From NCBI GenBank assembly GCA_964016885.1, contig OZ024748.1:44764001-44828000 (forward strand): DNA of 64,000 nt, written 5' to 3'. A model generated the notes under the pieces. The model did not search any database. It was not told where the DNA came from and was given only the letters and a program-made list of their open reading frames with translations. The translations under genes were made by a program, and so were the position numbers. How positions within the stretch are numbered: the first letter of the stretch is position 1; each line of letters starts with the position of its first letter. This stretch comes from Eledone cirrhosa (Eukaryota). Positions 553 to 24,468 of this stretch are shown piece by piece.

Positions 553-613
553 ATACACACATATATATACAATGATATTAAATAAATGGAAACTATATTT
601 ATAAAACCATATT

Positions 614-674
614 TATTCTATTATATATATTTCAAGGGTACCAAAACTTTGGTACGCTCTCATCAGATAAAATA
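614..674 (-). ncRNA. Minimal type-I hammerhead ribozyme motif
   Basis: Minus strand: UAUUUUAU-CUGAUGA-[GAGCGUACCAAAG/UUUUGGUACCCUU stem II]-GAAA-UAUAUA-UA-AUAGAAUA. Stem I pairs and stem III is palindromic. Confidence 0.75.
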
Positions 675-771
675 CAAAGTTTGTTTTATAAATGTTGACA
701 TACCCAGGAATGAGATCTTAACGGTTCGAGTTTTTCTTGGATAGAAAAACTTGAACCGTTAAGGTATCTTT

Positions 772-6700: not shown

Positions 6701-9700
6701 GACAGAGTGTTTTTTATCATAGCACCAGCATGTTCCCCTTACAGGGTGGACAGAGTGTTATTTGTCATATACTAGCATGTTCCCCTTAGAGGGTGGACAG
6801 AGTGTTTTTTGTCATAGCACTAACATGTTCCCCTTAGAGGGCGGTCAGAGTGCTTTTTGTCATAGCACTAGCATGTTCCGCCTTACAGGGTGGACAGAGT
6901 GTTTTTTGTCATATACTAGCATGTTCCCCTTACAGGGTGGACAGAGTGTTTTTTGTCATAGCACCAGCATGTTCCCCTTACAGGGTGGACAGAGTGCTTT
7001 TTGTCATAGCACCAACAAGTTTCCCTTACAGGGTGGACAGAGTGTTTTTTGTCATATACTAGACTGTTCCCCTTACAGGGTGGACAGAGTGCTTTTTGTC
7101 ATAGCACCAACAAGTTCCCCTTAGAGGGCGGTCAGAGTGCTTTTTGTCATAGCACTAGCATGTTCCCCCTACAGGGTGGACAGAGTGTTTTTTGTCATAG
7201 CACCAGCATGTTCCTCTTACAGGGTGGACAGAGTGTTTTTTGTCATAGCACTAACATGTTCCCCTTACAGGGTGGACAGAGTGCTTTTTGTCATAGCACC
7301 AACATGTTTCCCTTACAGGGTGGACAGAGTGTTTTTTGTCATAGCACTAACATGTTCCCCTTAGAGGGTGGACAGAGTGTTTTTTATCATAGCACCAGCA
7401 TGTTCCCCTTACAGGGTGGACAGAGTGTTATTTGTCATATACTAGCATGTTCCCCTTAGAGGGTGGACAGAGTGTTTTTTGTCATAGCACTAACATGTTC
7501 CCCTTAGAGGGCGGTCAGAGTGCTTTTTGTCATAGCACTAGCATGTTCCGCCTTACAGGGTGGACAGAGTGTTTTTTGTCATATACTAGCATGTTCCCCT
7601 TACAGGGTGGACAGAGTGTTTTTTGTCATAGCACCAGCATGTTCCCCTTACAGGGTGGACAGAGTGCTTTTTGTCATAGCACCAACAAGTTTCCCTTACA
7701 GGGTGGACAGAGTGTTTTTTGTCATATACTAGACTGTTCCCCTTACAGGGTGGACAGAGTGCTTTTTGTCATAGCACCAACAAGTTCCCCTTAGAGGGCG
7801 GTCAGAGTGCTTTTTGTCATAGCACTAGCATGTTCCCCCTACAGGGTGGACAGAGTGTTTTTTGTCATAGCACCAGCATGTTCCTCTTACAGGGTGGACA
7901 GAGTGTTTTTTGTCATAGCACTAACATGTTCCCCTTACAGGGTGGACAGAGTGCTTTTTGTCATAGCACTAGTGTTACATGGTGGACAGAGTGTTTTTTG
8001 TCATAGCACCAGCATGTTCCTCTTACAGGGTGGACAGAGTGTTTTTTGTCATAGCACTAACATGTTCCTCTTACAGGGTGGACAGAGTGTTTTTTATCAT
8101 AGCACCAGCATGTTCCCCTTACAGGGTGGACAGAGTGTTATTTGTCATATACTAGCATGTTCCCCTTAGAGGGTGGACAGAGTGTTTTTTGTCATAGCAC
8201 TAACATGTTCCCCTTAGAGGGCGGTCAGAGTGCTTTTTGTCATAGCACTAGCATGTTCCGCCTTACAGGGTGGACAGAGTGTTTTTTGTCATATACTAGC
8301 ATGTTCCCCTTACAGGGTGGACAGAGTGTTTTTTGTCATAGCACCAGCATGTTCCCCTTACAGGGTGGACAGAGTGTTTTTTGTCATAGCACCAGCATGT
8401 TCCTCTTACAGGGTGGACAGAGTGTTTTTTGTCATAGCACCAGCATGTTCCCCCTTACAGGGTGGACAGAGTGCTTTTTGTCATATCACTAGCATGTTCC
8501 ACCTTACATGGTGGACAGAGTGTTTTTTGTCATATATTAGCATGTTCCCCTTACATGGTGGACAGAGTGTTTTTTGTCATAGCACTAGCATGTTCCCCTT
8601 ACAGGGTGGACAGAGTGTTTTTCGTCATAGCACTAGCATGTTCCCCTTACAGGGTGGACAGAGTGTTTTTTGTCATAGCACCAGCATTTTCCCCCTTACA
8701 GGGTGGACAGAATGTTTTTTGTCATAGCACGAACATGTTCCCCTTACAGGGTGGACAGAGTGTTTTTTGTCATAGCACCAGCATGTTCCCCTTACAGGGT
8801 GGACAGAGTGTTATTTGTCATATACTAGCATGTTCCTCTTACAGGGTGGACAGAGTGTTTTTTGTCATATACTAGCATGTTCCCCCTTACAGGGTGGACA
8901 GAGTGTTTTTTGTCATAGCACTAACATGTTCCCCTTACAGGGTGGACAGAGTGTTTTTTGTCATAGCACTAACATGTTCCTCTTACAGGGTAGACAGAGT
9001 GTTTTTTGACATAGCACCAGCATGTTCCCCTTACAGGGTGGACAGAGTGTTATTTGTCATATACTAGCATGTTCCCCTTAGAGGGTGGACAGAGTGTTTT
9101 TTGTCATAGCACTAACATGTTCCCCTTAGAGGGCGGACAGAGTGTTTTTTCTCATAGCACTAACATGTTCCCCCTTACAGGGTGGACAGAGTGCTTTTTG
9201 TCATAGCACTAGCATGTTCCACCTTACAGGGTGGACAGAGTGCTTTTTGTCATATACTAGCATGTTCCCCTTACAGGGTGGACAGAGTGTTTTTTGTCAT
9301 AGCACCAGCATGTTCCCCTTACAGGGTGGACAGAGTGTTTTTTGTCATAGCACTAACATGTTCCCCTTACAGGGTGGACAGAGTGCTTTTTGTCATAGCA
9401 GTAACATGTTCCCCTTACAGGGTGGACAGAGTGTTTTTTGTCATAGCACCAGCATGTTTCCCCTTACAGGGTGGACAGAGTGCTTTTTGTCATAGCACTA
9501 GCATGTTCCCCCTTACAGGGTGGACAGAGTGTTTTTTGTCATAGCACTAGCATGTTCCACCTTACAGGCTGGACAGAGTGTTTTTTGTCATAGCACCAGC
9601 ATGTTCCCCCTTACAGGGTGGACAGAGTGCTTTTTGTCATAGCACTAGCATGTTCCGCCTTACATGGTGGAAAGAGTGTTTTTTGTCATATATTAGCATG

Positions 9701-16667: not shown

Positions 16668-16709
<42 letters not shown>

Positions 16710-16740
16710 ATCTATCTATCTATCTATCTATATATATATA

Positions 16741-17873: not shown

Positions 17874-18658
17874 TATATATATGTGTATGTGTGTGTATGT
17901 GTATATATTTACATATATTTACCCAAACTGCGATTCTGTGTTTTTCTCTCTCTCTTACTGTTCCCCCATTCTCTCTGTTTCTCCTACTTTCTTTCGCCCC
18001 CCCCCCTGTCATGTCAGTTAGCTCTTCCTCACACTTTCACTCACTCACTGTTTTTCCTCTCTTTGCTTCATCCTGTACACGACGAAAGCTATATTTTTCT
18101 CTCTTCTCACATGGCCCTCGTTCGTGTCAGGTCTTTTTTCTAAAGCGCTCATATATTCACCTAGCTTATGCTAAACAGAATAATTATGAAGCTTGTTTCA
18201 TTCCCCTACGGTTAGCTATACTCTTTGTTGTTCTCCTGTCTCACTCGCTTTACGCGTTTTAATTGTCCTAATAACTTATTTTAGTTATTATTGCACCGAC
18301 GTGAGGTATATGATTTTTAATGCAATGAAATATCTATGATCGTCGGCAAATCACTGATGAGGGACTCATTTTATTACATGTTATCCATGCGCTACCTGCA
18401 GTATTTTTCTCCATATTTTATTATATATATATATATATTAATAAATGGAAAGATGGACACACGCGTATAACTTGCTGAGTAAGTTCTGTTTAAATTTTTA
18501 TAGAAATTCTTGTCTGATAACTTTAATTTTTGTACCATTTTGTAGAGGGACTGCCAGGTCAAACTTTGATCTGGTCAGTCTCTCAAAATATTCTACGCCT
18601 TTAGGCGAAATAGTTAAAAAAAAAGTTTTTTCTTGTTGAAAAGTCAATATTTTTTTAA

Positions 18659-20446
18659 ATGGCCGAAGCTTCTTCACCAAAATTCGAAGGAGGAAAGGGG
18701 AAGATGAACTTACAGCTTCCCCCTGCCACTGTCACAGTAGCAGAGGTCAAGAAGATAGGTCAGCCAGAGGAAGAATTCTCTCCACCTGTTAACCGACAAC
18801 TTGACGTTGCCATGGCAACAACCCAAAGAACCAGCAGCAACAGCAACAACAACAACAATGCGACGGACGAAAACAACACCAATAACAATAACAATAACAA
18901 CAACAAGACCAATAACGGTGACAACAACAACAATGATAACAACAACACCACCAACGACAACAACAACACAAACAAACAAAATTTCTCCTTCGCCGAGACG
19001 ACAAGGAAAACCCTCGACTATCTGCCAGTAGATATAACAAAAGCGAAGGAGCTACTGGCGGATGCGAAAAAATATATAGTGTACGGGGAAAATGGTTCAT
19101 TCACAATCCATTCCTCCCCGGAACTAAAAAGCCAGAGACTCCTAAACACGGTCATGTTTAGGACAATCTCGAACAAAAGTAAAAAACCAGCTCAACCATC
19201 ACAGAGCGAGATAGAGCTGGTTTTAAAAGACGTCATGAAGGACATCACCTTCATTCAGAAGGATAGACTCTACGGGAGTCTATCCATTCTCATGAAGGAC
19301 AGGGACACAGCAGTGAAACTGTCCATCAAACCAATCACATCCACCGCATACACCTTCTACCCTACGTACATGGGTAGAAGAACACAAAAAATAAAAATCC
19401 ACACCATCCTGCCGATTATGGACATATGGTGGGTTTTGACAGGTTTTCTGGACCTGGAGGATGACATGCTGGTGTCCATGGGAAAGGCATCGGGTGACGC
19501 GTTCAGTGGAACGAGCCTCGAACTTGTAGTTCAAATGAGGCCCGAAAGGATCGCCCAGATCCCTGAACGCGTCATACTGGATGATCTAACCTTCATCAAC
19601 ATTACCGTTGAGGGTAGACGGCCCTCGTGTTACCTCTGCGGAACCAGAGGTCACCTGAGGGCTGTCTGTCCCCAACTTAATAAGAAAACCCCAATCCTGC
19701 CTACACCACCAACAACTGTACAACCAACACAATCACCACAACTACCACTACAAAAACAACCACCACAGCTCAAACCAAAACAAAACAATGTCCAACCCAT
19801 CCCCTCCACTCAAAAAACAAAAACAATTTCCAAAACACCCGTACCGCAAACACAACCCGAAAATATACCCCTCCCCTCCAACGCGGAAGATGACCCTAGT
19901 TCGTCGTCAGACGAGGAGGAGCACTTCCACACAATCAAAAGAAAAAAAAGAAAACACACCTCAGACACACAAATGAAAAAAACCCCTCCCCAAAACATAA
20001 CACAGACACCAACACAAAAGAGCTCACAACAGCAAACAAAAAACACCACACAAAAACAAAAACATGCATACACATACATAAATACAAGAAACAAAAAACT
20101 GTTAAACATTGTGTACAACAACAATCTAATAAAAACACAAGGGCCTAACTTCACCCAGGCAGGGGATTTCCCCCACCTCAAAATGATTAAGGCCCCACAG
20201 GACACCTATAAAACTTTAAAAAACAATTTTAAAGAGGACGTGGGTCCCCCCTGCGTCGGGCCCATTAACCGCGTCCTCCTAAAAAACTATCCCACCCCCT
20301 CCCCAAACACCCTCACAACTCCAAGCTCCCCAACCACACAACACACTGATGCCCCCACACTTCCACAAACCACCACCCCACCCAACAACCCATCCCCCAC
20401 CCTAATGGAAATTGTGCAGCCCGATACCCGGGACGCAGAGAGGTAA
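18659..20446 (+). CDS. Tx1 ORF1p, nucleic-acid-binding protein with CCHC zinc knuckle
   Basis: 595 aa. Contains CYLCGTRGHLRAVC (CX2CX4HX4C), a poly-Asn tract, a Pro/Gln/Thr-rich region and a basic KRKKRK motif. Confidence 0.9.
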   Translation: MAEASSPKFEGGKGKMNLQLPPATVTVAEVKKIGQPEEEFSPPVNRQLDVAMATTQRTSSNSNNNNNATDENNTNNNNNNNNKTNNGDNNNNDNNNTTNDNNNTNKQNFSFAETTRKTLDYLPVDITKAKELLADAKKYIVYGENGSFTIHSSPELKSQRLLNTVMFRTISNKSKKPAQPSQSEIELVLKDVMKDITFIQKDRLYGSLSILMKDRDTAVKLSIKPITSTAYTFYPTYMGRRTQKIKIHTILPIMDIWWVLTGFLDLEDDMLVSMGKASGDAFSGTSLELVVQMRPERIAQIPERVILDDLTFINITVEGRRPSCYLCGTRGHLRAVCPQLNKKTPILPTPPTTVQPTQSPQLPLQKQPPQLKPKQNNVQPIPSTQKTKTISKTPVPQTQPENIPLPSNAEDDPSSSSDEEEHFHTIKRKKRKHTSDTQMKKTPPQNITQTPTQKSSQQQTKNTTQKQKHAYTYINTRNKKLLNIVYNNNLIKTQGPNFTQAGDFPHLKMIKAPQDTYKTLKNNFKEDVGPPCVGPINRVLLKNYPTPSPNTLTTPSSPTTQHTDAPTLPQTTTPPNNPSPTLMEIVQPDTRDAER

Positions 20447-20470
20447 GTGCCTTTTCTCTTCACCACCAAC

Positions 20471-23400
20471 ATGGCTATGCTAAGAGTAGGCTGTTTAAAT
20501 GCGCGTGGCCTGGGCTCAACTTGGAAGCAAGCAATGCTTCTAAATGACCTCAGGTCACAACGTATAGATGTGATGGTTATTTGCGAGGCCCGGATCAGCA
20601 ACGTGCGACAGCTGGCCCCCACCTTTGATGACTTTGAGATGCACGCATCTCTCTGTCAGCCCGGAGGTGGGGGTGGAGTTGTCGTTCTGCTGCAAAAACA
20701 TCTGGGTCTCGCAACACAGATGGTACATTTGGACCCGGAGGGTCGACTAGTGGTTCTGGACCTTGGCAGTGGTAAAGGCGGAGCGTTTAGGTTGGTAGCC
20801 GCCTACGGCCCTTTCGGGTCAATGCGGCCGGACTTCTTCCATCGTCTGGAGACTTTTCTAGGGACGTCCCGCTCCTTGCTATTAGTGGGGGACTGGAATG
20901 GTATCCTAGATGCACGCTGGGACTACGTAGGGGCCTGCCCCGATAGAGAGGGGTGTAATAGCCTCAAAGGGTTAATCGGTCGATTTGACCTGGCCGATAG
21001 ATATCGACTAGATTTTCCGACTGCGCCAACCTGGACTTGGGCAAATCGTAGCGGATCATCTAGGTCGTACCTAGATAGGTTCTTAGTTAGAATTAAGGAT
21101 AAGGACTTTTTAAGTTGTCCAAAAATGCGCATTGTTGGCTATTCAGACCACAAATTAGTGACCTGCATGGTCAACCTTGACAGAACTCATAGACAGGGCC
21201 CCGGTTACTGGAAGCTCAACTTGTCCTTGCCGGCAAGTAGAGCCTACAGGAATCGGATTAGTACGTTAGTTAAGGAACGGTTGACTGGAGCGATCGTCAA
21301 CAGCAGGTGGTGGGTATCTCTAAAGAGAGAGATTAGAGTAGTCTCGATAGAATTTAGTAAGGTTCTAGCTGCGGATAGGAATAGGAAGGAAAGGGAGCTA
21401 ATAGATAGAGTAGAAGAGGCAATTAGAAGCGGCGACGTGGCCAGAGTGCTAGCGTCGAGAACGGCTTTGAGCCAGTATTTCGACGCGAAGCACGAAGGCT
21501 GCGTTGTCCGAAGTAAAATACGTGCTCTAGGGAACGAGGGGACCAAAGCTGTTAGCTGGGCCCGCGTGACAGAGGCCAACAGTGGAACTAAATCCACCAT
21601 CCGGTCTTTGCGAGACCTGGATGGACGGGCGATTCTTGAGCCTAAGCAGATGTGTGAGGCCTTTCAAAGGCACTTTGCCCGACTGTTCGGGAGGGGCGGG
21701 GAGCCGGTTGGGAACGTGGACTTCGGTCCATACCTCGACGGCCTGCCGCGCCTCTCGGACAGGGAGGCGAAGTCCTGCGAGGAGCCGATTTCGGCCGCTG
21801 AGATAGAGGACGTGCTGAGCCAATGCGGCAAACGCAAATCCCCGGGTCTCGATGGTCTTCCTTACGAATTATATCTAGCTATGCCGGACTTGTTCCCCGA
21901 TCTCCTCGAGGCGGTCTACTGCAACTGGCAACAGAACGGGAGAATTCCCTGTACTGTGACCAAGGGCGTAGTCACGCTAGTGAGGAAGGACGAGAACAAG
22001 GGGGACGAAATAAGTAACTTCAGGCCCATAACACTGCTAAATACAGAGTTACAGATTTTGGCCAAGGTGCTAGCAAAGAGGTTGGCGCTTGTCGTGGGCA
22101 ACCTGGTGGGAGATGCGCAGACATGCGCTATCCCGTCCAGGTCCATCCATGACAACCTCCACCTCATGCGATACATCATAGAGAGGGTTGGGAACGAACC
22201 CGGCTTTGGTGGGGCTCTGATCAACTTGGATCAATCTAAGGCGTTCGATAGGGTCGACCATGGTTACCTGGATGCGGTGCTAGCGGCGGCAGGCTTCGGA
22301 CCCGTTTTCAGGGGCTGGATCACTGCTATGCACAGCAGCCGCATCTGCTCTAGGGTCAAGGTGAACGGCTACCTCTCGGAGCCGTTCAAAATCGCGCGGT
22401 CCATCCGACAAGGGTGCCCTCTCTCCTCCCTTCTGTATGTGTTGACTCTCGAGCCACTACTGCGGAAGTTGGAGTTGTTGCAGGGCATCCCTTTGGAACC
22501 GGGATTGCGGAAAGCGGTGTCGGCCTACGCCGATGACGTGACAGTAATGGTGTCGACGGCCTCCGAAATCGAGGCGGTCGGCACCTTACTGGAGGAGTAC
22601 GAAAAGTTCACAGGGGCTAAGCTGAACCGGGACAAGTCGATCGGTTTGCAACTCGGCACGTGGAGGGGCAGACCGATGCCCTCCGATAGCGTCGTCGGAC
22701 GCTGGACGGAGGGCCCGGTGAAGTTGCTCGGGGTCTGGTTCGGACCGGACCTCCAGGTGGAGAAAAACTGGGCGGAGGTTACGAACAGGGTGTTTGCACT
22801 GACCCAGAAGTGGGCCAGTTGCAAACTATCCCTGAAAGGTCGGGCGGAGGTGGCGAACACCTACATAGCGTCCGTCATCTACTACCGCCTGACCGTAGTG
22901 CCCTGCCCAAGGGAAACCCTCACCAAGATGGAGCGCGCGCTCTTCCAATTCCTTTGGAAGAGGCGGGCTCCTATGGTGAGGAGATCCATCTGCTGTCAAC
23001 ACCCTTCGAAAGGAGGGCTGGGGATGCCGTGGCTAATGATGCGTAAACACGCATTAAGGCTACGGCACCTCTACGTATTCCTCACCGGACAACCGGTGTG
23101 GGCCTCGTTTGTGAGACGAACCTTTCCCAGACTCGTCTCACTCACCGAGCTGCAATCCTGGGTCAAGCAAAGACCGAGAAAACTGGGCGCCTGGCACACT
23201 GAGTGTGCCCAGGCGCTCACCGCCCTCTGGCAGGCGGATCCGGTTATCAGTGGAGACTCCACCGCAACATTCTATAGAGGGCTGGTACGCAGCAGGTGCG
23301 ACGACGCCCTCGGAGAAGCCCTAGACATGGAGGAGGACGAACTGGCCAGCCTGTTCGGTAGGACATTCAGCCCGGGACCTATGGACAACTTCCAGAAGTC

Positions 23401-23908
23401 CCTGGCCTGGCAGTGCTACCGAGGGGCTTTACCCGTTCGAGAAAGGCTCTACAGACACGGGCGCCCGGGTAGGGACCCCGCCAAAAAGATCTGTCCCAGA
23501 TGCGTGTGCGACGAGGAAACCGTTGCACACGCATTAGTACACTGCTCGGGCGTAGCCGATCTGTGGGGCTATGTCGAACAACTGCTGTCAAGGGTGGGAC
23601 CGATCCGGTTGACCACCGAGTCTATTGTAATGATCAAGCCGCCTCCCCCCTTCAAAGATGAAGCAGAGGCGGTGTTTCTGTGCGTAATAGCCATGGCGAA
23701 AGAGGTTGTATGGTGGACGCGTCTGAAAGGACTGAGGTCGGGCACCTTTCTCTCTGGCCAACAACTGGTCCATTTCTTCCGATATCATTTCGGAAGAAGG
23801 ATCAGGATGGAGAGAGAGGTGCTGCACCCCAGCCGTTTCTATGAAAGATGGGTGAAAGTGGCGAGAATGGCCCGTGTGAATGGGCCTTCACTCTACATCA
23901 GACTATAG
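20471..23908 (+). CDS. Tx1 ORF2p, APE endonuclease + reverse transcriptase + C-terminal Zn finger
   Basis: EN motifs LNARGL, GDWN, LDRF and SDH. RT motifs KSPGLDG, FRPITLLN, LDQSKAFDRVDH, IRQGCPLS and YADD. C-terminal CPRC..ETVAHALVHC. The first ATG at 20471 is in strong context (AACATGG). Confidence 0.96.
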   Translation: MAMLRVGCLNARGLGSTWKQAMLLNDLRSQRIDVMVICEARISNVRQLAPTFDDFEMHASLCQPGGGGGVVVLLQKHLGLATQMVHLDPEGRLVVLDLGSGKGGAFRLVAAYGPFGSMRPDFFHRLETFLGTSRSLLLVGDWNGILDARWDYVGACPDREGCNSLKGLIGRFDLADRYRLDFPTAPTWTWANRSGSSRSYLDRFLVRIKDKDFLSCPKMRIVGYSDHKLVTCMVNLDRTHRQGPGYWKLNLSLPASRAYRNRISTLVKERLTGAIVNSRWWVSLKREIRVVSIEFSKVLAADRNRKERELIDRVEEAIRSGDVARVLASRTALSQYFDAKHEGCVVRSKIRALGNEGTKAVSWARVTEANSGTKSTIRSLRDLDGRAILEPKQMCEAFQRHFARLFGRGGEPVGNVDFGPYLDGLPRLSDREAKSCEEPISAAEIEDVLSQCGKRKSPGLDGLPYELYLAMPDLFPDLLEAVYCNWQQNGRIPCTVTKGVVTLVRKDENKGDEISNFRPITLLNTELQILAKVLAKRLALVVGNLVGDAQTCAIPSRSIHDNLHLMRYIIERVGNEPGFGGALINLDQSKAFDRVDHGYLDAVLAAAGFGPVFRGWITAMHSSRICSRVKVNGYLSEPFKIARSIRQGCPLSSLLYVLTLEPLLRKLELLQGIPLEPGLRKAVSAYADDVTVMVSTASEIEAVGTLLEEYEKFTGAKLNRDKSIGLQLGTWRGRPMPSDSVVGRWTEGPVKLLGVWFGPDLQVEKNWAEVTNRVFALTQKWASCKLSLKGRAEVANTYIASVIYYRLTVVPCPRETLTKMERALFQFLWKRRAPMVRRSICCQHPSKGGLGMPWLMMRKHALRLRHLYVFLTGQPVWASFVRRTFPRLVSLTELQSWVKQRPRKLGAWHTECAQALTALWQADPVISGDSTATFYRGLVRSRCDDALGEALDMEEDELASLFGRTFSPGPMDNFQKSLAWQCYRGALPVRERLYRHGRPGRDPAKKICPRCVCDEETVAHALVHCSGVADLWGYVEQLLSRVGPIRLTTESIVMIKPPPPFKDEAEAVFLCVIAMAKEVVWWTRLKGLRSGTFLSGQQLVHFFRYHFGRRIRMEREVLHPSRFYERWVKVARMARVNGPSLYIRL

Positions 23909-24173
23909 GTGAGGAAGATGAAAGACCAAGGGAGCACCCCTTCTCTGTGCTCCTGAGGAGAAGGGTTGCACACTTTTTTCGGGGGTGTGTGCGACCCCCC
24001 AAGGCGCCTCCTCTCTATTGAGGATTTTGTTAAAAATTTTATTTTTTGTTATATCTTATTTTATTTTTATATTTTGTTATTGCCTCCTCCTTATTGAGGA
24101 CGCCTTTTTGTGTAAACTCCCCCCTTTGTACTTGTCCCACTTTTGATCCCCTAGTGGCAAATAAAAGAAATAT

Positions 24174-24343
24174 ATATTTATAAAACAATAATTATTTTAT
24201 TATATATATTTCAAGGGCAACCAAGGAAATCTTGGCGCGTTTTCATCAGATAAAAGCGCACCAAGAATGCCTTGGTTGTCCTTGAAATATATATAATAAA
24301 ATAATTATTGTTTTATAAATATAGTTTTCATTTATTAATATAT
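24174..24343. repeat. Palindromic hammerhead-bearing element (left arm interrupted by Tx1)
   Basis: Arms at about 24174-24238 and 24256-24323 are inverted. The rest of the right arm (to 24343) matches 18433-18451. Confidence 0.85.
24195..24255 (-). ncRNA. Minimal type-I hammerhead ribozyme motif
   Basis: Minus strand: UUUUAU-CUGAUGA-[AAACGCGCCAAG/CUUGGUUGCCCUU]-GAAA-UAUAUA-UA-AUAAAA. Same family as 614-674. Confidence 0.7.
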
Positions 24344-24433
24344 TGAATATTTACTCCAGTAAACTGTTGAGTGCTTTATACCAGTTATAAACTTTTAAGC
24401 TTGTTGGAATCCCAACAAATTAAATATAACTTC

Positions 24434-24468
<35 letters not shown>

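What the first reader, a model, noticed from the sequence alone, without database searches (positions are those of the whole stretch)
18433..24343. Intact Tx1 retrotransposon inserted inside a hammerhead palindrome, with the empty site in the same window
Seen: the left flank ATATATTAATAAATGGAAA (18433-18451) and the right flank TATATTTATAAAAC (from 24173) rejoin to give the uninterrupted ATATTAAATAAATGGAAACTATATTTATAAAAC at 575-607. The reverse complement of the palindrome's other arm (24311-24343) gives nearly the same junction. The insertion is about 23 nt 3' of the ribozyme and antisense to it. The element's end, AATAAAAGAAA, mimics the target AATAAATGGAAA, so it is either a diverged TSD or priming homology. 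Established: many Tx1-clade elements are target-specific for multicopy sequences (DNA transposons, snRNA/tRNA genes, microsatellites). Inference: this family may target a ribozyme element. One insertion cannot show specificity.
Basis: partly seen in the sequence, partly recalled or inferred. Interest (0 to 1): 0.75.

Follow-up and report, generated by a model that had tools for sequence, protein, structure and literature searches.

The report
Microsatellite-seeking LINE landed off-target in ribozyme repeat
An intact 5.7-kb LINE retrotransposon sits inside a hammerhead-like inverted repeat exactly as described, but thousands of sister copies in the same genome lie in (TATC)n microsatellites, so this copy is most likely a rare off-target hit and not evidence that the family seeks ribozyme elements.

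Summary
The insert (18452-24172, +) is an intact LINE. ORF1 has a CCHC knuckle. ORF2 has an APE endonuclease, an RT and a zinc-binding tail, and is collinear with L1 ORF2p.

The own genome (3.0 Gb) holds at least 374 full-length 5' ends and 3,300 3' ends of this family, 99.2-99.9% identical to the window copy. In one contig, 52 of 55 5' ends follow TATC/CTAT repeat units. Of 100 3' ends, 88 are followed by TATC. The normal target is therefore a (TATC)n microsatellite, nicked at C^TAT.

The window copy lies at C^TATAT in a repeat present about 64,000 times. Two other copies, both 5'-truncated, hit the same nucleotide with identical 18-bp target duplications. A crude motif count would allow 5-9 such hits by chance, so I see no enrichment.

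AATAAAAGAAA is the family's own 3' end, not a target duplication.

The host repeat does carry a plausible type-I hammerhead with a one-pair helix III. Core, helices and covariation fit, but no Rfam model matches it. It looks like the terminal repeat of a Penelope-like element.

Verdict: anatomy right, ribozyme targeting not supported. This is a new member of the known microsatellite-specific LINEs.

The parts
18433..18451 (-). Left stub of the host repeat: the last 19 nt of the hammerhead-bearing terminal repeat, cut off from the rest by the LINE. It is preceded by (TA)n.
   Evidence: The same AATAAATGGAAAC end is seen in 14 other arms, and the 27-mer around it occurs 64,388 times in the genome at up to 3 mismatches.
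18452..24172 (+). Full-length LINE of 5,721 bp, starting GATGGACACACG and ending AATAAAAGAAATA. No target-site duplication; one C of the target is missing.
   Evidence: 99.2-99.9% identical to other copies. The 3' end is fixed by the TSD-bearing copies.
18452..18658 (+). 5' UTR of the LINE.
   Evidence: 34 other copies are listed at 100% identity over the whole 249-nt query 18452-18700, which covers this UTR and the start of ORF1. The exact 24-mer of the 5' end occurs 374 times.
18659..20446 (+). ORF1, 595 aa, with an N-rich low-complexity stretch and one CCHC zinc knuckle (CYLCGTRGHLRAVC).
   Evidence: open frame. (no Pfam family). (weak hits of residues about 317-354 to zinc-knuckle proteins).
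20471..23908 (+). ORF2, 1145 aa: APE-type endonuclease, reverse transcriptase and a zinc-binding tail.
   Evidence: Exo_endo_phos 5e-8, RVT_1 5e-26, zf-RVT 4e-5 (24.7 bits, below the cut-off of 27.5); residues 8-857 are collinear with human LINE-1 ORF2p, E = 3e-48.
23909..24172 (+).
   Evidence: 3,300 genomic ends carry it. (the element ends directly before the TSD).
24173..24343 (.). Remainder of the host structure: two 5'-truncated repeat copies head to head, forming an inverted repeat.
   Evidence: 90% self-complementarity over 164 nt. (other genomic pairs of arms lie 0.3-3.8 kb apart).
24193..24257 (-). Hammerhead-like motif: helix I (6 bp), CUGAUGA, long helix II, GAAA, a 1-bp helix III with loop UAUAUA, UA, predicted cleavage site, then helix I.
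   Evidence: No Rfam match.
24344..24436 (.). One-sided 'tail' sequence shared with other copies of the host repeat, followed by (TA)n at 24437-24468.
575..700 (.). Uninterrupted paralogous copy of the host repeat. The target 27-mer is at 581-607 and the hammerhead-like motif at 614-674 on the minus strand.
16705..16728 (.). (TATC)6 tract: an unoccupied example of the family's usual target, 1.7 kb upstream of the insertion.

Best explanation
The window holds an intact, very young copy of a high-copy L1/Tx1-type LINE whose sister copies lie overwhelmingly in (TATC)n microsatellites. This copy most likely arose when the element's endonuclease nicked a look-alike site, C^TATAT, inside an abundant hammerhead-bearing repeat.

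Shown: the anatomy of the element; the flank statistics; the position of the 3' junction; and two further independent insertions at the same nucleotide with an identical 18-bp target duplication.

Inferred: the endonuclease nicks the bottom strand at 5'-ATA^G (top strand C^TAT). The freed ...ATA-3' end would prime reverse transcription on the RNA end ...GAAAYA. The second nick would usually fall 18 bp downstream at this site, whereas in the window copy it fell at or 1 nt before the first nick, losing one C and leaving no duplication.

The host repeat is probably the 3'-terminal repeat of a Penelope-like element, present here as two 5'-truncated copies head to head. Its ribozyme motif plays no detectable part in attracting the LINE.
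For: Element: (two open frames; APE + RT + zinc tail; collinear with L1 ORF2p).

Youth and abundance: 374 exact 5' ends and 3,300 3' ends. Median identity to the window copy is 99.2% over 5' pieces and 99.8% over 3' pieces, for 29 loci each.

5' flanks:
- 28 of 29 top-hit loci have at least 2 CTAT units in the last 60 nt, and the 29th has tatctatct.
- 219 of 374 5' ends are preceded by TATCTNNGG.
- On contig C1, of 55 5' ends, 30 have TATCTNNGG and 22 of the other 25 have at least 3 CTAT units. L088 follows another copy's end plus a short TATC stretch. L072 and L073 are off-target.

3' flanks:
- 1,604 of 3,300 ends are followed by exact CTATCTATC.
- Of the first 100 ends on C1, 88 are followed by TATC, 11 by TATA and 1 by TATT.
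- 357 of 3,300 are followed by TATA.

The window-type 5' junction occurs nowhere else at up to 2 mismatches. The window-type 3' junction occurs in 2 other places, on C12 and C19. Both are 5'-truncated copies (about 139 and 362 nt) in different copies of the repeat, each flanked by TATATTTATAAAACCATA. In all three insertions the element ends ...GAAAYA with no TATC unit, so the TATC repeats are target and not element tail.

Site abundance: 64,388 hits. CTATA and CTATAT frequencies from the window give an expectation of 5-9 hits among the 357 TATA-class ends, against 3 observed.
Against: The 3' pattern used for counting includes TAT of the target, so ends followed by other letters are not counted (for example L002...GAAAC|CTATATAT).

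Many 3' flanks hold only one or two TATC units before unrelated DNA: 40 of the 61 flanks on C1 that are not followed by exact CTATCTATC. The recognised target may therefore be shorter than a microsatellite.

The chance expectation rests on k-mer counts from a single 64-kb window.

The nick position is inferred from junctions, not measured.

Three hits at one nucleotide with identical TSDs could also reflect some preference for this site that my crude background hides.

The allelic empty site was not recovered.
Confidence: 0.85

Rival explanations
1. One reading: the LINE family specifically targets the hammerhead-bearing repeat. It would do so through recognition of that sequence or through homology between its 3' end (AATAAAAGAAA) and AATAAATGGAAA.
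For: Three independent insertions lie at exactly the same nucleotide, two with the same 18-bp TSD. The 13 nt upstream of the nick resemble the element's last 13 nt.
Against: Only 3 of 3,300 3' ends lie there, and only 1 of 374 full-length 5' ends. The site exists 64,388 times, and chance alone would give about 5-9 hits. The usual target (CTAT)nC has no resemblance to AATAAAAGAAA upstream of the nick, so that homology is not needed for insertion.
Confidence: 0.04
2. The family has no real target preference. (TATC)n would be its own 3' tail, and the (CTAT)n seen upstream would be tails of older copies in tandem arrays.
For: 9 of 29 top-hit 5' flanks are preceded within 120 nt by another copy's 3' end. 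Head-to-tail arrays with 5,764-bp spacing exist (L022-L024). Many 3' flanks have only 1-2 TATC units.
Against: Many 5' flanks pass from unique DNA straight into (CTAT)n of very different lengths (for example L010-L013, L066, L069, L075). In the window copy and the two TSD-bearing copies the element ends ...GAAAYA with no TATC unit, so the repeat is not templated by the element.
Confidence: 0.08
3. The arrangement is not a de novo insertion. It would be a product of recombination or assembly error between a LINE copy and copies of the abundant repeat.
For: Both partners are high-copy repeats. There is no TSD at the window copy.
Against: Both flanks continue the two halves of one repeat arm with only 1 nt missing. 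The 3' junction nucleotide is the same as in two TSD-proven insertions. The element is complete from its normal first base to its normal last base.
Confidence: 0.03

Closest known systems
Kibi and Koshi, and the crocodilian Tx1 families: Tx1-clade LINEs specific for (TC)n, (TTC)n and (TTCC)n/(TTTC)n microsatellites. Sources: passages read in PMC4494074 and PMC3812793, which cite Kojima & Fujiwara 2004 (not read).
   Same: An APE-type LINE of the L1/Tx1 architecture in an animal genome. Flanks are dominated by one microsatellite unit, far above the 20% criterion used in PMC4494074. Head-to-tail arrays form in the target.
   Different: The repeat unit is TATC (CTAT/GATA), which does not appear among the targets listed in the passages I read. 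Clade membership was not tested by phylogeny.
Tx1L of Xenopus laevis inserted in the Tx1D DNA transposon, and Tx1-9_AMi inserted in Harbinger transposons (passages in PMC4494074).
   Same: A LINE found at one fixed position inside another mobile element.
   Different: For those families the transposon is the main target. Here the repeat accounts for 3 of 3,300 ends, and I read it as a look-alike of the real target.
Waldo and Mino (ACAY, AC) and Dong (TAA), microsatellite-specific LINEs of other clades (passage in PMC3812793).
   Same: Sequence-specific insertion into short tandem repeats by an APE-type endonuclease.
   Different: I recall these as R1-group elements; this was not checked here. 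The ORF2 here is collinear with L1 ORF2p over EN + RT.
Type-I and minimal hammerhead ribozymes in the terminal repeats of Penelope-like elements. Sources: Cervera & de la Pena 2014, PMC4209133, passages read; Craig et al. 2021, PMC8557442, passages read.
   Same: The host repeat has CUGANGA, GAAA, a long helix II, a 1-bp helix III with a mostly palindromic 6-nt loop, and helix I of 6-8 bp. It occurs as inverted 5'-truncated pairs, abuts (TA)n and has a one-sided tail. Longer copies hold an ORF with RT-like and GIY-YIG-like motifs.
   Different: Pair 10.1-11.1 is A-U or G-U instead of the G-C called highly conserved in PMC4209133. No Rfam hammerhead model matches it. Pfam finds no domain in the ORF.

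Membership tests
L1/Tx1-type LINE (L1 superfamily) | ORF2 with an N-terminal APE-type endonuclease, a reverse transcriptase and a C-terminal zinc-binding region | tested here: met
   Exo_endo_phos at 23-227 (33.3 bits, cut-off 24.5) and RVT_1 at 512-755 (92.1 bits). zf-RVT at 976-1032 scores 24.7 bits, just under its cut-off of 27.5.
L1/Tx1-type LINE (L1 superfamily) | Closer to L1 ORF2p than to other LINE groups over EN + RT | tested here: met
   human LINE-1 ORF2p E = 3e-48 over residues 8-857. R2 proteins score E = 1e-19 at best and match the RT only.
Tx1 clade | Phylogenetic placement of the RT with named Tx1 elements rather than with L1 | not tested
   No named Tx1 sequence came back (named hits: an ascidian pol-like protein and plant L1-like proteins) or (generic cluster names). 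No reference could be brought in.
Tx1 clade | Target-sequence preference, common but not universal in the clade (PMC4494074 passage) | tested here: met
   (TATC)n flanks.
Target-specific LINE, by the criterion of PMC4494074: one sequence type in more than 20% of flanks | The same repeat in more than 20% of flanks | tested here: met
   5' side: 52 of 55 on C1. 3' side: 1,604 of 3,300 with exact CTATCTATC.
LINE family targeting the hammerhead repeat | A substantial share of copies at one position of that repeat | tested here: not met
   3 of 3,300 3' ends and 1 of 374 5' ends.
Hammerhead ribozyme, type I | Conserved core C3-U4-G5-A6-N7-G8-A9, G12-A13-A14, A15.1-U16.1 and H17 | tested here: met
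   the core is invariant in 11 of 11 aligned copies except N7, which is U, G, A or C. H17 is A.
Hammerhead ribozyme, type I | Helices I and II supported by pairing and covariation | tested here: met
   91.4% of cells paired, against 41-53% when partners are slid. 5 pairs in helix II change on both sides. Helix I has 97.7% of cells paired, with only one-sided changes. The sample is small (11 sequences).
Hammerhead ribozyme, type I | G10.1-C11.1 pair, highly conserved according to PMC4209133 | tested here: not met
   columns 18/48: A-U in 9 copies and G-U in 2.
Hammerhead ribozyme, type I | Match to a curated Rfam hammerhead model | tested here: not met
   no hammerhead family at the gathering score or at E up to 10.
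Hammerhead ribozyme, type I | Self-cleavage | not testable with these tools
   Needs transcription of monomeric and dimeric constructs.
Penelope-like element (host repeat) | ORF with RT and GIY-YIG endonuclease | tested here: inconclusive
   A 566-aa frame lies between two arms. Pfam finds nothing at E up to 1. The Atlas look-alikes score 0.92-0.95; the three best carry only HTH_animal on 29-38% of members, and RVT_1 (76-79% of members) and GIY-YIG (11-31%) appear on lower-ranked clusters. I read the YRDD and VVY...YVGST motifs by eye.
Penelope-like element (host repeat) | Inverted 5'-truncated copies, a one-sided tail and microsatellite flanks (PMC8557442 passages) | tested here: met
   arms in inverted pairs 0.3-3.8 kb apart. 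By my reading of the printed flanks, 8 of 14 arms abut (TA)n and 4 of 14 carry the shared tail.

The most novel reading that the evidence does not exclude
This is a currently active LINE with a target specificity I did not find described in the papers I searched: (TATC)n microsatellites, read by an endonuclease that nicks at C^TAT. At a non-repeat look-alike site it places the second nick exactly 18 bp downstream. Its thousands of near-identical copies would make it a natural, self-limiting 'safe-site' integrator.
Probability: 0.45. Interest if true: 0.45.

Novelty: new member of a known kind. Interest (0 to 1): 0.35.

Why it matters
The attractive idea that a retrotransposon homes to ribozyme-bearing elements does not survive a census of its sister copies. 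That saves follow-up effort.

What remains is still useful to people who study mobile DNA. It is a very young, probably active, high-copy LINE with strict preference for a tetranucleotide microsatellite. Three off-target insertions at a non-repeat site reveal the exact first-nick position and an 18-bp offset of the second nick, which insertions inside a microsatellite cannot show. The family also explains part of the interruption and tandem structure of (TATC)n loci in this genome.

The host repeat adds one more very abundant hammerhead-like motif, about 64,000 sites, that curated RNA models miss.

Tried and rejected
1. The first genome search, with the last 153 nt of the element, gave only 3 matches. 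This briefly suggested a low-copy family. Longer queries and exact patterns showed thousands. The tool skips very common words.

2. Rfam at the gathering score and at E up to 10 over both repeat copies, and over a third motif, found no hammerhead family, only hairpin-like miRNA models. I did not take this as proof of absence, because the manual core and helix test and the covariation count are positive.

3. Naming the clade: one search returned 95 relatives, none named Tx1. One search gave generic cluster names.

4. Pfam on the ORFs of the host repeat found nothing.

5. Looking for the allelic empty site or polymorphism in public runs: the contigs are short and dominated by other copies of the repeats. 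No joint bridging 18451 to 24173 was listed, with 225 joints not shown. No conclusion can be drawn. Near-identical LINE pieces also occur in runs labelled as two other organisms (X1, X2).

6. Literature searches for a (TATC)n/(GATA)n-specific LINE (and passages) found none. Repbase and subscription papers are not covered.

7. The search of earlier findings had nothing for this genome.
Full report
**Observation.** The left flank is ATATATTAATAAATGGAAA at 18433-18451. The right flank TATATTTATAAAAC starts at 24173. The joined form is at 575-607, and the reverse complement of 24311-24343 gives nearly the same. The stretch 24173-24343 matches its own reverse complement at 90% over 164 nt and matches 575-672 at 81-83%. 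The 'empty site' is therefore a paralogous copy of a repeat, not the allele without the insertion.

**The insert.** Two long frames lie between the junctions: ORF1 at 18659-20446 (595 aa) and ORF2 at 20471-23908 (1145 aa).
- ORF2 carries Exo_endo_phos, RVT_1 and a near-threshold zf-RVT.
- ORF2 is collinear with human LINE-1 ORF2p over residues 8-857 (E = 3e-48). R2 proteins match only the RT.
- ORF1 has no Pfam family but has one CCHC knuckle.

This is an L1/Tx1-type LINE. I could not test the Tx1 clade itself, because no named Tx1 relative came back.

**Sister copies.** The window lies in a 3.0-Gb assembly.
- The exact first 24 nt of the element occur 374 times.
- The 3' end GTGGCAAATAAAAGAAAYATAT occurs 3,300 times.
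- The 29 + 29 best loci are 99.2% and 99.8% identical (medians) to the window copy.

The family is very young.

**5' flanks.** In 28 of 29 top-hit loci the last 60 nt before GATGGACAC hold at least 2 CTAT units, and the 29th has tatctatct. Genome-wide, 219 of 374 5' ends are preceded by TATCTNNGG. I also took a position-ordered census of all 55 5' ends on contig C1:
- 30 have TATCTNNGG.
- 22 of the other 25 have at least 3 CTAT units.
- One follows another copy's end plus a short TATC stretch.
- Two (L072, L073) are off-target.

The window-type 5' junction occurs nowhere else at up to 2 mismatches.

**3' flanks.** 1,604 of 3,300 ends are followed by exact CTATCTATC. Of the first 100 ends on C1, 39 are of that kind. 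Of the other 61, 49 go on with TATC, 11 with TATA and 1 with TATT. Genome-wide, 357 of 3,300 go on with TATA. One caveat: the counting pattern includes TAT of the target, so ends followed by other letters are missed (L002).

**The same site elsewhere.** The window-type 3' junction, at up to 3 mismatches, was found 12 times. Apart from the window, two are true same-site cases, on C12 and C19. Both are 5'-truncated copies (about 139 and 362 nt) in different copies of the repeat. Both are flanked by the same 18-bp duplication, TATATTTATAAAACCATA. This has three consequences:
- The element ends ...AATAAAAGAAAYA and carries no TATC unit, so (TATC)n is target and not tail.
- The first nick falls at C^TAT, the same dinucleotide step as in ...TATC^TATC...
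- AATAAAAGAAA is element sequence, not a diverged TSD.

The window copy has the same 3' junction but no duplication, and one C of the target is missing.

**Is the repeat a preferred target?** The 27-mer around the site occurs 64,388 times at up to 3 mismatches. The frequency of CTATA or CTATAT in the window, scaled to the genome, makes these sites about 1.5-2.6% of all such motifs. With 357 TATA-class ends, that predicts 5-9 hits, against 3 observed. This is a crude background, but it gives no sign of enrichment. An unoccupied (TATC)6 lies 1.7 kb upstream of the insertion.

**The host repeat.** Rfam finds no hammerhead. On the minus strand, however, every copy I examined reads as follows:
- helix I 5' strand UAUUUU(A/G)U
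- CUGANGA, where only N7 varies and all four bases occur
- a long helix II
- GAAA
- a 6-nt loop, UAUAUA in 7 of 11 copies
- UA, then the predicted cleavage site
- helix I 3' strand AU(A/G)AAAUA

On 11 aligned copies, 91.4% of cells pair, against 41-53% when partners are slid. Five helix II pairs change on both sides. This matches the architecture described for metazoan type-I and Penelope-element hammerheads: a short helix III with a palindromic loop, a long helix II, and probable action as dimers (PMC4209133, passages). The exception is pair 10.1-11.1, which is A-U or G-U here rather than G-C.

The arms occur as inverted pairs 0.3-3.8 kb apart, usually abut (TA)n, and carry a one-sided tail. 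These are the features reported for Penelope-like elements (PMC8557442, passages). One 3.8-kb copy holds a 566-aa frame with RT-like and GIY-YIG-like motifs that I read by eye. Pfam is silent on it. The Atlas look-alike clusters score 0.92-0.95: the three best carry only HTH_animal on a minority of members, and RVT_1 and GIY-YIG appear on lower-ranked clusters. I therefore read the 'hammerhead palindrome' as two 5'-truncated terminal repeats of a Penelope-like element, head to head. Cleavage is untested.

**Mechanism.**
- Shown: the junction positions, the TSD and the flank statistics.
- Inferred: the APE endonuclease nicks the bottom strand at 5'-ATA^G. The ...ATA-3' end primes on the RNA end. 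Second-strand cleavage is 18 bp downstream at the look-alike site. In the full-length window copy it fell at about the first nick.

**Comparison and novelty.** Microsatellite-specific APE-type LINEs are known: Kibi (TC)n, Koshi (TTC)n, crocodilian Tx1 (TTCC/TTTC), Waldo and Mino (ACAY, AC), and Dong (TAA) (PMC4494074 and PMC3812793, passages). I found no paper describing a (TATC)n/(GATA)n-specific LINE. Repbase and subscription journals were not searchable. I file this as a new member of a known kind.

**Verdict.** The anatomy is largely right, including a credible hammerhead-like motif. The inference that the family targets a ribozyme element is not supported.

Noticed in passing
window 42370-42444 (+): A second, unrelated hammerhead-like motif: CUGAUGA, a 36-nt helix II hairpin, GAAA, the palindromic loop UGCGCA, UA, and a 6-bp helix I. 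No Rfam hammerhead match.
   Followed up: partly
window 16705-16728: An unoccupied (TATC)6 tract, the family's usual target, lies only 1.7 kb from the off-target insertion.
   Followed up: no
window 56500-61300: A long array gives many overlapping matches at about 72-77% identity to the N-rich low-complexity part of ORF1 (element nt 365-528). It is probably an AAT/AAC-type simple repeat rather than homology.
   Followed up: no
G000 C3:217897502-217909278 (L022-L024): Three full-length copies lie head to tail at exactly 5,764-bp spacing, joined by short TATC stretches. Nested and 5'-truncated copies directly follow other copies' 3' ends (L003, L048, L058, L059).
   Followed up: partly
G000 C1:108821956-108827672 (L073 and L154): Another full-length off-target copy, inserted in a satellite of roughly 50-bp units (unit ...caatatttctaatgaaagacac.gcctatgtcat...). 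It keeps ATCTCTGG before GATGG, although no TATC repeat is upstream.
   Followed up: no
5' junctions in L005-L033 and L065-L089: Most copies have 1-2 extra G, and often CT or CTCT, between the (CTAT)n flank and GATGGACAC. The window copy and a few others (L067, L072, L074, L079) lack them. The origin is unexplained: non-templated addition or slightly different 5' ends.
   Followed up: no
window 18359-18446 and L167 (reverse complement) 6928-7022: The DNA just left of the (TA)n that precedes the host repeat is itself repeated, at 77% identity, at the C12 locus. The (TA)n may belong to yet another element.
   Followed up: no
runs X1 and X2: Contigs from runs labelled as two other organisms carry pieces of this LINE with 0-5 differences over 200-1,600 nt. 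The young family may therefore be shared with close relatives.
   Followed up: no
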